Shown in pieces: positions 10,050 through 15,161 of a stretch of DNA of 64,000 nucleotides; the first letter of the stretch is position 1, and the number at the start of each line of letters is the position of its first letter. The DNA lies in NCBI RefSeq assembly GCF_009914755.1, contig NC_060932.1; one strand, 5' to 3'. The notes beneath the pieces were generated by a model, which was given only the letters and a program-made list of their open reading frames with translations, ran no database searches and had not been told where the DNA came from. This DNA comes from the human T2T-CHM13v2.0 reference genome, Homo sapiens. The translations under genes and the position numbers were made by a program.

Positions 10050-10289
10050 AGAAAATATTTCACCATTTGTTCAAATTACCTCCTGTATTATTTGCTGAGT
10101 TTTGTGGTTGTTTTCTTTTAGATACATTGGAAGTTTATCATTTTAATGAGAGTAGAATAATAAACAGTCTGAAATTTTAAGGAGTTACATAAAAAGCAAT
10201 ATAGCCTTTTCCTCTTTCGCTTGCTGTCTCCCCTTCCCCTCCTTCTTTCTCCAAATGGAGGGAGTTCTTTTTTTCTTCTTCCATCTCAT

Positions 10290-11130
10290 CTACTCAATAA
10301 CGGAGCCGCTGCAGCCGCTGCACGCTGCACACACACGGCACAGTCCCTGGGTCCGGGAGCCAGAGCAGCGCCACTCGGAGACGGGATGGTTCCGTGGGTT
10401 GTGTAGGAGCACAGGAAAGCGGAGGCCGGGCCACACAGCACGGCGAACCCAGCAGCCCAAGCCCAGCGGACCAAGCAGCCACCCCCGGGAGCCGCCACTG
10501 CCTGGAGCAGTCACCGGCGGGAGCCTCCATTTCCAGGAGCCGCCACCGCTGGGAGCTGCCACAGCCGGGAGCCGCCACCGCCAGAAGCCTCCATCTCCCG
10601 GGAGCCGCCATCGCTGGGAGCCGCCACCTCCAGGAGCCGCCACGGCCACCGGGAGCCGTCACCGCAGGGAACCTCCATCTCCTGGAGCCACCACCGCTGG
10701 GAGCTGCCACCTCAGGAGCAGCGGCAGCACTGGGACCCGCCGGGCCCCCTCGCACCCAGCGGCTCTGCAGGTGCCCTACACCCGGGAGGGGCCGAGGGAG
10801 CCCACGCCGCCGGCGGGACCGCAGGGATTTGCTGGCTCTTTCTGCGCTGAGGGGTCGCGGCGCGGGGCGGAGGTCGGGTGGGGAAAGCTGGAGCCGCAGG
10901 GAACGCGCAGGACAGGCTCGCTGGGTGTCGACTCTAGCCCTCTGTCAGAGACCTTGGGACCCGCGCAATGTGGCAGTGGAAGGCGCAGGGTCTGACCCCG
11001 GCCGCGGCCGCCGCAGCAGCTGATCTGTCAACCCCGGCCAGAGCCGAGCCGCCTGAGGCCTGCAGTGTTCTCCATCACCACTGTGATGGCATCCGCTTCC
11101 GTGACTGTCACTGTGCACCCTCCGCCTGTC
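10290..11130. promoter_or_regulatory. CpG island carried by the PTCH1 retrocopy (candidate promoter)
   Basis: Very high GC and CpG density relative to the flanks. Confidence 0.75.
10486..10718 (+). repeat. CpG-rich 16-17-bp minisatellite (consensus ~GGGAGCCGCCACCGCC/T, about 13-14 copies)
   Basis: Direct reading of tandem ggagccgccacc units. Confidence 0.9.
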
Positions 11131-11324
11131 CTGGGCCCACGCAGGACCCCCAAGCGGGGCTCTGCACAGGCCAGGAGGGCTACCCAGGGACTGACCACGG
11201 GTTGTTCATGGGTCCTCACCTGCTTTTCCAGGTCCAGGGTGAGAGGACGAATTTGAAGGTAGAAGTCACAGAGTTGCAGGATGTGGAGTGCGAGGAGTGG
11301 CCCCGGGGAAGCAGCTCCAACTGA
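10968..11324 (+). CDS. Candidate 118-aa chimeric ORF (PTCH1 5'UTR upstream ATG joined to the PTCH1 C-terminal tail); translation unproven
   Basis: ATG with a purine at -3; open to the native PTCH1 stop; the last ~60 aa align to the PTCH1 C-tail. Confidence 0.25.
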
Positions 11325-11345
11325 GGGTGATTAAAATCTGAAGCA

Positions 11346-11647
11346 GGCCGGGCGCAGTGGCTCACATCTGTAATCCCAGCACTTTTGGAGGCCGAGGCAG
11401 GTGGATCACCTGACGTCAGGAGTTCGAGACCAGCCTGGGCAACATGGTGAAACCCCGTCTCTGCTAAAAATACAAAGTTAGCCAGGCATGATGGCGAGCG
11501 CCTGTAATCCCAGCTACTAGGGAGGCTGAGGCACGAGAATCGCTTGAACCTGGGAGGGGGAGGTTGCAGTCACCTGAGATTGGACCATTGCACTCCAGCC
11601 TGGGCAACAAGAGCGAAACTCCATCTCAGAAAAAAAAAAAAAAAAAA
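11346..11647 (+). mobile_element. Alu (AluS) inserted in the PTCH1 retrocopy 3'UTR
   Basis: TSD aaaatctgaagca (11333-11345) / aaaatctaaagta (11648-11660). Confidence 0.95.
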
Positions 11648-12015
11648 AAAATCTAAAGTAAAGAGGTCAAAGATCGGAAACCCCTGCCCCTACACCTTTC
11701 AAGAACTGCTTGGTAAGAACTGCTCGTAGTTACGGTAAAGATGCCTTGAGCCAGGATAGCAGTACATTGTTGCTGTAGCTGGTTGTATTATTTTGTTAAA
11801 CATTTCCATAAAGATTTAAGAGGTGTACACATGTGTAATATAGGAAGGAAGGATGTAAAGTAGTATGATCTGGGGCTTCTCCACTCCTGCCCCAGATTGT
11901 GGAGGCTGCAGTGGGGCCTCTCCTTATTTGTGCATTGGTCTCTGTGCCACAACCAAGCTTCACTTCGTCTTGAATGTCAGCATATGTTGCTGCTGCTTAA
12001 ATATTTTATAATTTC

Positions 12016-12202
12016 AAAAAATTAGCTGGGCGTGGTGGTGGGCGCCAGTAGTCCCAGCTACTCGGGAGGCTGAGGCAGGAGAATGGCCGTTAACCTGGGA
12101 GGTGGAGCTTGCAGTGAGCCGAGATTGCGCCACCGCACTCCAGCCTGGGTGAAAGAGCAAGACTCCGTCTCAAGAAAAATAATAAAATAAAATAAAATAA
12201 AA
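12016..12202 (+). mobile_element. 5'-truncated AluY-like element (right monomer)
   Basis: Right arm plus (TAAAA)n tail; TSD ~atatt(t/g)tataattt. Confidence 0.9.
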
Positions 12203-12332
12203 TATATTGTATAATTTACTTGTATAATTCTATGTGAATGTTGCTTATGTAATAGGATTATTTTGTAAAGCTTTCTGTTTAAATATTTTAAATTTGCATA
12301 TCACAACCCTGTGGTAGTATGAAATGTTACTG

Positions 12333-12527
12333 GTTTTTTTTTTTCTTTTTTCTTTTTTCTTTTTATTTTTTATATTATTATTATACTTTAAGTTCTAGGG
12401 TACATGTGCACAACGTGCAGTTTTGTTACATAGGTATACATGTGCCATATTGGTTTGCTGCACCCATCAACTCGTCCTTTACATTAGGTATTTCTCCCAA
12501 TGCTATCCCTCCCCCAGCCCCCCACCC
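12333..12527 (-). mobile_element. L1PA (PA6/7-like) 3' fragment
   Basis: tatactttaagttctagggtacatgtgcacaac; TSD gaaatgttactg at 12321-12332 and 12528-12539. Confidence 0.92.
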
Positions 12528-15161
12528 GAAATGTTACTGTTAACTTTCAATCATGTTATGCATCATAACGTTTTTTGTTTAATGAACAGATATGAGCAAA
12601 GGACGTTAATCCCGGTATCTTCTCTAGTTGTAGTTGTGTGTGGTTCTCGAGTGGCTGCGCATGTGAACACGTGTGATTTCTCAGTGTACTGTACTGTGAT
12701 TTGTTTTTATTGCTTGTTTTGTTTCCCCTCAGTGTCTGTAACCCTTAGCAGGCTCTGACCTAGTCAGGCTAGAAGAAGCATAAGGATCTTTTATTGCTTT
12801 GTGCTGGGTGAGGGCTGGCCCTAAACATCTGCCTAATCCTTTCAACGGGCCCAGGAAAAGCCAGACTGGCATCATGTCCACAGCATCGCTTAATATCGTT
12901 GGTTGTCATCCAGACACCTCAATTTGTGCTGCAGAGGAAATAAGTTCCTTCTCACGGATCATCATGATGGATATTGAAACCTCAGGGTGCAGAACTAACA
13001 CCTGTTCATCATCGTGGATGTTAAAGAATTGGGTAACATGCCAAGCGGTAAGCCTTGGATGGGCCATGAGAATATCCTCTAAAAAGCACGCAGTATTGTG
13101 CCCCTCTCACAACCAACACACACGTGACCTGTCCCCTGGCACCCCCAAATTTAAGAGTGGATTGCAAATCTTTTGGAGACCATGGCCCTGCTACATGTAG
13201 AAAAACCTGTTCTGCTATTCCTGGGCCCACAATAAACCCAGAAATTATGTTTTGAGTTACTGTGATTTAAACTCCCTCTCTTCTTAAATGGAACAGCTCA
13301 TTGGGGCTTTCTGGATCTGTTTCCATTTTTCTTTAAAAATAAATTGTGAGCATGCATTGTGGTGATGCAGAGGCAGGCATTCTGTGAGATACAAGCTCCA
13401 GAAGGATTCTCCTCAATGTGTCAGTGTTGGGATGCACACTTCCTAAATAAATCATCATTGTCTCCGTCTTCTCCATTAATAGCGCTCTTTCAGTGTGACA
13501 TGGAAAAGCAGGATGGCATACACCCCACTGAAGGATGTAGGCGGAGGCAGATCTCTCAACCAGGCATATTGCTTCTGTACTGCTCTTCTTTTGCTCTAAG
13601 GTATGGGTTCCCTCAACCTCTTAGCTAGAGACCAGCAAATGTCAGGGAAGCACCCGGTGTCTGGCTCCCCTTCCAAATCAACACCAGTGTCTTGTTACAG
13701 ACAAGAAGTCAGAGGAAAGGGCGGGGTCCCAGCAGGGCAGAAGCCTAAGCTACTATGAGGCACTCACAAGTGGCAGCTCCTGTTACTCCCTCTTAAATTA
13801 TGTGGGAAATCTTAACGGAAGGGCAATGGGCCCCAGGAATACCTGCAGCGTAGTGACCTCAGATCCTGATACTCACCATGAAACTCTAAGATACTGATTG
13901 GAAGCGACTTGTGGCTGCTGGCTGTGTGTGTGACTCTGCCGGGGACCCTGGCAGCCCCCCTGTAGCTGTCTTGATGCCTCTCTGTCACCCACATCATCTG
14001 CCTACTTAACGCCCAGCTCTGCTCAGAAAACGTTATGTCCTGTGTCGAGGAGAGACGACGCAAAATTCTGAAGTCCATTTCCCTCTGGCTCCTGGCATAC
14101 CCTCGCTCCTTTTCTGAGCCCAGCTCGTGGTGTGCCAGAGCCTGTGTGGTCCCCTGACTTCTGCACAGTGTAGAACTTTCTCCAATAGTCACAATGGCAA
14201 AGGGAGAACTGGGGGGCTGGCAGGTAATTAGAATTTCTCTCCCTCTCTCTTTTAATACTTTCATTTTGAATGTCTTATTTGTTCATGTGTATGTTTTAAC
14301 TTAAAAAATTCTTTCTGATATTTTTAATTTTGTGTCATAAGAATGTTTTCCTCTACAGTATTTGTCATACCAGTTTATAACCACAGAAATGCAGAGATTT
14401 TATTTCTATTGGAAACATTACTACAGCTATGTTTTACTTTTGAACAGAATTTTTACTTGTATAGGGTGCTTACTAATGTTAAATAGTTTGGAGTATATAA
14501 CATTTACATTAAGGACTCATGGTAGGTTAAAACCCTAAAGGGTAAGGGGTTTAAAGGAAATAAATATTCAAACTGAGTCTTATTGCCAATTTTGGTGTAA
14601 ATGAGTTTGTGTCATTTCAATTACAAAGATAAAAGTATGCCATATAATTTATGTAAAATTTGTTTTTGTGGTGTACATAATAGTTATCAAGTCTGTTGAC
14701 AGAAGTATATTTTAAAAGAATATACATGTGATGAATCCATAATATCTGAAACTTTGCTGAGATATGAGTGGGGCACACTTCATTGTAAATTACAGCAAGG
14801 AAAGAAATTAAGGAAAGAAGTTAAGAGAGTGAGAGTGAGTGGATATTCACACAATTGTTAAATGTTTATTAGTTACCTTTTGTGATGTAGTGTGGTTCTC
14901 ATTTTAAACCTTGGAAGGTGAAAATGTACAAACTATAAATATGAATGTTCAAACACTGACAGAAATTCTAATATGAATTAAAAAATAACGAAAAAACAAC
15001 AATATATTTTATCTTACTAATTATGAACTTGGTTATTCTATTATTCATTCTAATGAATATTTTAAGTGATGGTTTAATTTTATTCACATATAGTTGCCAT
15101 TAAAAGGTTAACTCTCTCATAAAAACATTTTTTCTATTTTAACATTCTTTGCCTCTCATTT

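What the first reader, a model, noticed from the sequence alone, without database searches (positions are those of the whole stretch)
10204..15000. Unusual retrocopy architecture: both PTCH1 UTRs kept, nearly the whole CDS missing
Seen: a single TSD-bounded insert with ~870 bp of CpG-rich 5' sequence, only ~250 bp of coding tail, and a ~3-kb 3'UTR ending in a polyA remnant. Ordinary L1 retrocopies are 5'-truncated; this one is internally deleted by roughly 4 kb (gcagtgttctcc|atcaccactgtg, with no obvious splice junction). Inference: RT template jumping, a rare PTCH1 isoform, or a later deletion. The result is a promoter plus 3'UTR cassette suited to act as a miRNA/RBP sponge (ceRNA) for PTCH1. 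The 5' extent may record an ancestral TSS well upstream of the usual exon-1b start.
Basis: partly seen in the sequence, partly recalled or inferred. Interest (0 to 1): 0.7.

Follow-up and report, generated by a model that had tools for sequence, protein, structure and literature searches.

The report
Old PTCH1 pseudogene missing its middle
This is an already-catalogued, broken reverse-transcribed copy of the hedgehog-receptor gene PTCH1 that keeps both ends of the message but lacks 4.2 kb of its middle, a gap shared with macaques that likely arose as the copy was made; it is annotated as transcribed but is probably without function.

Summary
Observation confirmed; function unsupported. Window 10204-14993 is a processed copy of PTCH1 (chr9), already listed as 'patched 1 pseudogene' (LOC100287846). 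It holds the exon-1 leader (-940 to -107 from the ATG) joined at 11072|11073 to the last 244 coding bases, with the last intron spliced out, then the 3'UTR to a proximal poly(A) signal; 4,206 nt of mRNA are missing. Uninterrupted paralogous sites on chr22 confirm the target-site duplication. Two Alus, an L1 tail and a minisatellite came later. A predicted macaque protein reads through the same junction, so the gap predates the ape/Old World monkey split. The junction has 1 nt of microhomology and no unusual pairing, but a GC-type donor sits exactly at the 5' break and an AG 2 nt from the 3' break. My odds: skip during reverse transcription 0.40, mis-spliced template 0.30, early genomic deletion 0.25. 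The leader has stayed a CpG island but lacks the essential GLI site, so expression is predicted hedgehog-independent. The miR-101-3p site survives, yet 7-mers are not kept above chance; sponge function about 0.08. An unusual specimen of known processes.

The parts
10191..10203 (+). 5' copy of the target-site duplication; one base off the L1 endonuclease consensus TT/AAAA (consensus as in PMC2912911)
   Evidence: 11 of 13 identical to the 3' copy; single copy at uninterrupted chr22 paralogues L028, L029
10204..11072 (+). Copy of PTCH1 exon-1(B) leader, -940 to -107 from the ATG; CpG island; no GLI consensus site
   Evidence: CpG dinucleotides kept 35 / decayed 15 against 10 / 33 in the rest, p 9e-6; 0 GLI matches with up to 1 mismatch in L011
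10474..10711 (+). 16-bp minisatellite (14.6 copies) expanded inside the copy from a short stretch of the leader
   Evidence: similar repeats in predicted baboon, macaque and orangutan proteins
11072..11073 (+). Internal junction: leader joined to exon 23; 4,206 nt of mRNA missing; 1 nt microhomology
   Evidence: same junction read through by Macaca nemestrina predicted protein P0123
11073..11324 (+). Last 244 nt of PTCH1 coding sequence (P1367-N1447, stop at 11322-11324), frameshifted in human; keeps three ancestral codons that human PTCH1 has lost
11325..11326 (+). Spliced exon 23/24 junction (519-nt intron absent)
11326..14985 (+). PTCH1 3'UTR copy up to the proximal poly(A) signal, 86.5-96.5% identical over aligned bases, interrupted by later inserts
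11346..11651 (+). Later full-length Alu with its own duplication (subfamily AluSq/Sp-like by recalled diagnostics, not tested)
12015..12203 (+). Later 5'-truncated Alu (right arm) with its own duplication
12333..12527 (-). Later L1 3'-end fragment (name by recognition) with a perfect 12-bp duplication at 12321-12332 / 12528-12539
12686..12697 (+). Two overlapping miR-101-3p seed matches, intact as in PTCH1 (seed motif recalled)
   Evidence: PTCH1 as miR-101-3p target in PMC5797013
14977..14993 (+). Decayed poly(A) signal and short A-rich tail remnant
14994..15006 (+). 3' copy of the target-site duplication

Best explanation
This is a processed pseudogene of PTCH1 with 4,206 nt of the message missing from its middle, likely lost while L1 reverse transcriptase was copying it, and its transcript is probably non-functional. 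Shown: a spliced PTCH1 RNA, starting 940 nt before the ATG and ending at a proximal poly(A) signal, was inserted with a 13-bp target duplication into an orphan immunoglobulin-lambda V cassette; the gap is shared with macaque; the leader has kept its CpGs; the GLI site was not copied. Inferred: the enzyme copied about 3.2 kb from the 3' end, then resumed (template skip or repair join, 1 nt of overlap) in the GC-rich leader and ran to the 5' end; a copy born without the ATG and coding region would carry no dosage cost and could drift to fixation; the inherited CpG island would act as a hedgehog-independent promoter giving the annotated lncRNA. Confidence by step: retrocopy identity 0.98; gap present from birth by either route 0.70; by this route 0.40; no sponge function 0.9.
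For: Intron loss, tail remnant and duplication. Both pieces are in sense orientation, so not twin priming. The gap is exactly shared with macaque, which leaves only the interval before that split for a later deletion. An undeleted copy would need an 8,250-nt cDNA against about 4,040 nt. The junction is not an exact splice product (2 nt short of the nearest GC-AG join). Internal deletion and template switch are recorded classes among human and chimpanzee insertions (PMC2912911 Table 1 note). CpG retention, absent GLI site, neutral 7-mer retention 0.359 against null 0.386 +/- 0.010.
Against: No positive mark of a template skip was found: microhomology 1 nt (51% of random pairs have at least that), pairing between the deleted ends not unusual (11-19% of random pairs as strong for the inside windows, 69-91% for centred windows), no direct similarity. 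The GC-type donor exactly at the 5' break (1 of 4 such five-base sites in exon 1) and an AG 2 nt from the 3' break (combined p 0.006, thresholds chosen after seeing the data) point to splicing. A later clean deletion predicts the same 1-nt overlap. The dosage argument is inference from recalled PTCH1 dosage sensitivity, not tested.
Confidence: 0.4

Rival explanations
1. The template was a mis-spliced PTCH1 RNA: a cryptic GC donor in the exon-1 leader was joined to a cryptic AG inside exon 23, and two C of the resulting run of four were lost before the ape/monkey split.
For: Parent reads GCAAG immediately after the 5' break; only 9 of 1,130 exon-1 positions score as high on a matrix from the gene's own 23 introns, and 39 of 4,084 coding positions score as high as the AG 2 nt before the 3' break; combined p 0.006. 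The only upstream ATG still open at the break (-250) would be in frame with the native stop, which would spare such an RNA from nonsense-mediated decay (a 1-in-3 chance). Retrocopies of cryptically spliced RNA exist: about 1.8% of full-length L1PA1-6 (PMC5860796).
Against: The join is 2 nt short in both human and macaque. The acceptor scores 1.9, below all 23 real acceptors (4.7-15.0); the donor scores 4.0 only when GC is treated as GT, above just 1 of 23 real donors, and its exonic side is poor. A GT-type site 71 nt upstream was available. The matrix is small and home-made.
Confidence: 0.3
2. A full 8.25-kb copy was inserted and lost 4.2 kb later by end-joining repair in the germ line, before apes and Old World monkeys parted.
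For: 1-nt overlap and no structure at the junction fit plain end joining. The copy's divergence (non-CpG 13%; pN 0.129 in the tail) suggests it is much older than that split, leaving time.
Against: Needs an unusually long cDNA and a multi-kb deletion with both ends inside it within a limited interval; an intact, promoter-bearing PTCH1 copy would likely be selected against (inference).
Confidence: 0.25
3. Whatever its origin, the transcript now works as a miRNA decoy (ceRNA) that raises PTCH1 or SLC39A6, chiefly through miR-101-3p.
For: Curated RefSeq lncRNA NR_037168.2 (annotation supplied with the finding); signal fell 10.5-fold on an array after EPHB4 knockdown (PMC4389669); both miR-101-3p seed matches intact; the PTCH1 3'UTR itself is reported to act through miR-101-3p (PMC5797013); RP11-1134I14.8 is listed with miR-101-3p in a database-derived table (PMC6616202).
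Against: 1,059 of 2,950 parent 7-mers intact, slightly below the shuffled null; 5 of 9 parent sites of a 12-seed recalled panel kept, about 3.4 expected; three mobile elements landed in the UTR; no abundance or knockdown data seen; array probes could cross-react with PTCH1.
Confidence: 0.08
4. The locus encodes a new proline-rich protein (RefSeq model LOC124900251, ORF 10255-10995) or a 118-aa peptide ending in the PTCH1 tail (ORF 10968-11324).
For: Both frames are open in human and begin at ATGs inherited from PTCH1 upstream ATGs (-869 and -250).
Against: Predicted baboon, macaque and orangutan proteins switch among the three human frames; the macaque frame leaves the 118-aa frame at the human 1-nt deletion; only 6 and 2 database hits, none with a Pfam domain.
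Confidence: 0.04

Closest known systems
LOC100287846 / 'Patched 1 pseudogene' (alias RP11-1134I14.8, equated here by the shared description)
   Same: It is this locus: named a PTCH1 pseudogene in PMC4389669 and PMC13135955; RefSeq lncRNA 11067-15022.
   Different: The passages seen give only a name in gene lists; the leader copy upstream of 11067, the 4,206-nt gap, the junction and the age were not described in them.
L1-mediated processed pseudogenes
   Same: Intron loss, A-rich tail, 13-bp duplication at an endonuclease-like site.
   Different: Neither plain 5'-truncated nor 5'-inverted: both ends kept in sense orientation, middle gone.
Retrocopies that inherit a parental promoter (about 3% of expressed retrocopies; PMC4772013)
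   Same: Made from an upstream-initiated transcript, so it carries about 570-590 nt upstream of the classical exon-1B start, and the CpG island persists.
   Different: No coding sequence behind it; start site not mapped here; the hedgehog-response element was left behind.
SpIREs, retrocopies of cryptically spliced L1 RNA (PMC5860796)
   Same: Internal gap beginning in a 5' leader, splice-like signals near both ends.
   Different: Cellular mRNA; donor is GC-type; join is 2 nt off the acceptor.
PTENP1-type decoy pseudogenes (PMC5470649)
   Same: Transcribed retrocopy of a tumour suppressor with a long 3'UTR copy.
   Different: Only about 36% of 7-mers shared with the parent; no functional test seen.

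Membership tests
Processed pseudogene (L1-mediated) | Introns removed at exon borders | tested here: met
   The one border inside the copy (exon 23/24, 519-nt intron) is joined exactly
Processed pseudogene (L1-mediated) | 3' end at a poly(A) signal with an A-rich tail | tested here: met
   Alignment ends just after the parent's AATAAA at 2,953 nt of the last exon; tail is short and decayed
Processed pseudogene (L1-mediated) | Target-site duplication | tested here: met
   11 of 13 nt; one copy at the two chr22 paralogues that cover both flanks, of four loci aligned
Processed pseudogene (L1-mediated) | L1 endonuclease consensus at the site | tested here: inconclusive
   AT/AAAA against TT/AAAA, one mismatch after long divergence
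Processed pseudogene (L1-mediated) | Parental reading frame disabled | tested here: met
   ATG and 4,100 of 4,344 coding nt absent; tail frameshifted
Twin-priming (5'-inverted) insertion with internal deletion | 5' part inverted | tested here: not met
   All pieces align in sense orientation
Retrocopy of a cryptically spliced RNA (SpIRE-like) | Splice donor exactly at the 5' break | tested here: inconclusive
   GC-type donor at the break, top 9 of 1,130 positions, weak against real donors
Retrocopy of a cryptically spliced RNA (SpIRE-like) | AG acceptor exactly at the 3' break | tested here: not met
   Nearest AG is 2 nt upstream, in human and by translation in macaque
Promoter-inheriting retrocopy | Parent-derived sequence containing a parental promoter region | tested here: met
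   Covers -588 to +246 of the classical exon-1B start as placed by a published primer; CpGs preferentially kept
Promoter-inheriting retrocopy | CAGE-mapped start inside or downstream of the inherited sequence | not testable with these tools
   Annotation gives starts at 10133 (predicted, 71 nt upstream of the insert) and 11067 (curated); no CAGE data available
Decoy (ceRNA) pseudogene | Shared miRNA sites with the parent | tested here: met
   miR-101-3p matches at 12686 and 12691; 5 of 9 panel sites kept
Decoy (ceRNA) pseudogene | Sites kept above neutral expectation | tested here: not met
   0.359 of 7-mers intact against 0.386 +/- 0.010; human-only comparison, no outgroup DNA
Decoy (ceRNA) pseudogene | Enough transcript, and an effect on the parent when removed | not testable with these tools
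   No expression or perturbation data could be run

The most novel reading that the evidence does not exclude
The copy is a fossil of a natural UTR-only PTCH1 RNA, made by a GC-AG splice from the exon-1 leader into exon 23 that skips 21 exons, which PTCH1 may still produce; the chr8 copy now expresses that same leader-plus-3'UTR RNA independently of hedgehog signalling and buffers miR-101-3p.
Probability: 0.05. Interest if true: 0.6.

Novelty: new member of a known kind. Interest (0 to 1): 0.25.

Why it matters
Modestly. It is a clean, datable example of two uncommon retrocopy traits together (inherited CpG-island promoter; large same-orientation internal gap), and three origins can be told apart with existing primate genomes and RNA data. 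It is a fossil of the ancestral PTCH1 message: start at least 940 nt before the ATG, use of a proximal poly(A) site, and three codons that human PTCH1 has since lost. Practically, a transcribed copy 83-97% identical to PTCH1 exon 23 and 3'UTR could disturb probes, primers or siRNAs aimed at the PTCH1 3'UTR. If the mis-splicing origin held, it would reveal an undescribed non-coding PTCH1 isoform.

Tried and rejected
Twin priming: rejected, no inversion. Microhomology- or hairpin-guided jump: no signal. Remains of the missing exons nearby or elsewhere: none in the window or among 35 genome matches; the junction stretch matched only itself and PTCH1. A DNA-level duplication of PTCH1: rejected by intron loss and the empty sites. 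An upstream exon suggested by the first 31 residues of P0121: they map to chr12, so treated as a chimeric record. A conserved ORF from the upstream ATG to the native stop: open in human only among the records seen. The thyroid-cancer association that names LOC100287846 (rs62538810) was not used: only a locus label, genome build not checked. The reference 5'UTR length could not be confirmed: PMC11057154 has no PTCH1 entry in text or in the 3 supplements held; two recalled papers were not held; supplements of PMC4772013, which could list this copy among promoter-inheriting retrocopies, could not be read; bioRxiv supplements were not seen. No primate DNA was available, so New World monkey status is open. 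Earlier scan findings were not available.
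Full report
What is there. A genome search with window 10150-15050 found one non-repeat partner, chr9:107.61-107.68 Mb on the minus strand. Translation of its last coding exon matches PDB 'Protein patched homolog 1' residues 1269-1447 at E 1e-117. I fetched 90 kb of that locus and, guided by a galago PTCH1 protein, recovered 23 coding exons, all GT-AG, giving 1,447 codons. Against this model the window reads: 10204-11072 = leader from 940 to 107 nt before the ATG; 11073-11324 = last 244 coding nt; 11325|11326 = exact removal of the 519-nt last intron; 11326-14985 = 3'UTR to the AATAAA 2,953 nt into the last exon. 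Missing: 4,206 nt (106 leader, 4,100 coding). Nothing of it remains in the window (best E 0.31), and none of 35 genome matches to the protein is another copy (PTCH1 exons, a chr1 and a chr10 paralogue, and this tail; the search used a stricter first look).

Ends of the insert. The flank belongs to an immunoglobulin-lambda V cassette collinear with chr22:22,483,523-22,487,520 at 73-80% identity (the IGL label rests on the supplied IGLV8OR8-1 annotation and recalled position). Two chr22 paralogues align to the left flank up to 10203 and to the right flank from 15000, and carry one copy of the sequence that is doubled in the window (the other two loci aligned covered only the right flank). The duplication is 10191-10203 / 14994-15006, 11 of 13 identical. 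This matters because the parent also has AATATA just behind its poly(A) signal, which alone would have left the 3' duplicate in doubt.

Later changes and age. A full Alu, a half Alu and an L1 tail sit in the UTR, each with its own duplication, about 0.7 kb in all; a 16-bp minisatellite grew in the leader. Identity to PTCH1 is 83-97% by segment, about 13% divergence at non-CpG sites. A search with the predicted 246-aa ORF gave 6 hits among 4,322 candidates, including baboon, pig-tailed macaque and orangutan predicted proteins. The macaque protein P0123 runs through the junction with the same residues as human frame 3, so the gap and its exact register predate the ape/Old World monkey split (about 25-30 My, recalled); orthology is inferred from the shared junction and minisatellite, as no genomic context was given. 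The copy also keeps three codons that 17 of 17 aligned non-human PTCH1 proteins (7 of them primates, no ape among them) have and human PTCH1 lacks. No New World monkey hit appeared, which is weak evidence either way.

How the gap arose. The junction shares one C; 51% of random pairs share at least as much; the deleted ends pair no better than 11-19% of random pairs, and there is no direct similarity. Both pieces are in sense orientation, unlike twin priming, whose deletions are short and sit at an inversion (bioRxiv 10.1101/2024.08.27.596794, passages). On a matrix from the gene's 23 introns these rank in the top 9 of 1,130 and 39 of 4,084 positions; allowing for slack, the combined p is 0.006, with thresholds set after the fact. 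Against it, the acceptor scores below all 23 real ones, the donor above only 1 of 23 even with GC counted as GT, and the join is 2 nt short in human and macaque. My rough weighing leaves these near even, so priors decide: skip or repair join during reverse transcription 0.40, mis-spliced template 0.30, early genomic deletion 0.25, other 0.05. The priors lean on the 8,250-nt length of an undeleted copy, on internal deletion and template switch being recorded among recent insertions (PMC2912911, passages), on spliced retrocopies making up about 1.8% of full-length L1PA1-6 (PMC5860796, passages), and on my inference that an intact expressed PTCH1 copy would be selected against.

Expression. The leader copy is a CpG island (o/e 0.68, GC 0.69). 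Of parent CpGs, 35 are kept and 15 decayed in the leader, against 10 and 33 in the rest (p 9e-6; 10 and 9 others changed otherwise), as expected if it stayed unmethylated in the germ line; part of the contrast may come from CpGs gained in the parent's UTR. PMC2830928 (passages) places an essential GLI site at -704 of the main exon-1B start; that site lies 129-137 nt upstream of the copy's first base, and no site with up to one mismatch occurs in the 3,876 bases around the leader copy (1.3 expected by chance). A published primer puts the classical start 352 nt before the ATG, so the copy begins about 570-590 nt upstream of it (the mapping is 13-21 nt off the published GLI position). This fits the route of promoter inheritance from an upstream-initiated transcript seen in about 3% of expressed retrocopies (PMC4772013, passages). 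I recall that the present reference transcript has a leader of about 905 nt and ends near the distal AATAAA; no call confirmed this. The supplied annotation has a curated lncRNA (11067-15022) and predicted spliced forms whose splice sites are canonical in the window.

Function. PTCH1's own 3'UTR is reported to act through miR-101-3p (PMC5797013, passages), and both overlapping seed matches survive in the copy. But 1,059 of 2,950 parent 7-mers are intact, 0.359 against a shuffled 0.386 +/- 0.010, and 5 of 9 sites of a recalled 12-seed panel are kept. There is no sign of selection for a sponge, though the test lacks an outgroup. The ORFs are not conserved in frame among primates.

What is in print. 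Searches for LOC100287846 (8 papers), PTCH1 + pseudogene + chromosome 8 (9), 'patched 1 pseudogene' (2) and RP11-1134I14.8 (8) returned listings; I read passages of five (PMC4389669, PMC13483233 with supplement rows, PMC4817771, PMC13135955, PMC6616202). The four that mention the locus name it in tables only; PMC4817771 does not concern it; the rest I saw as listings. None of what I saw describes the internal gap. Also read as passages: PMC10363645, PMC5470649, PMC11057154. Subscription journals were not searched.

Verdict. A real, accurately observed feature: a known PTCH1 pseudogene with an uncommon build that known processes explain. Origin of the gap is open among three routes and testable with existing data; a regulatory role is unsupported. 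Interest 0.25.

Noticed in passing
window 9566-20494: An orphan immunoglobulin-lambda V cassette collinear with chr22:22,483,523-22,487,520, split by three retro-insertions within 6.3 kb: an L1 tail (9984-10048), the PTCH1 copy and ATP6V1G1P2 (15151-16213), the last two tail to tail about 150 bp apart.
   Followed up: partly
window 11169-11177 region; PTCH1 exon 23 (L015): Human PTCH1 lacks three residues (GYE) of the C-terminal tail that 17 of 17 aligned non-human proteins have; the pseudogene keeps the matching nine bases, so the loss happened in PTCH1 after the split from Old World monkeys.
   Followed up: partly
window 10968-11324: A 118-aa open frame runs from the inherited PTCH1 upstream ATG across the junction to the native PTCH1 stop; not open in the macaque record, and not annotated.
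   Followed up: yes
window 10255-10995: The RefSeq 'proline-rich proteoglycan 2-like' model starts at a PTCH1 upstream ATG and runs through the minisatellite; monkey and orangutan models use other frames, so it is probably spurious.
   Followed up: yes
window 15172-15927: The ATP6V1G1 copy extends about 600 bp left of its annotated span, as 3'UTR (81% to chr9:126.79 Mb; parent identity by recalled position and the supplied annotation), with several further copies in the genome.
   Followed up: no
window about 43300-44470: Repeated weak hits at regular spacing suggest a tandem repeat array here; not examined.
   Followed up: no
P0121: An unnamed database protein joins 31 residues from chr12:109,686,798-109,686,890 to this ORF; probably an assembly chimera.
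   Followed up: partly
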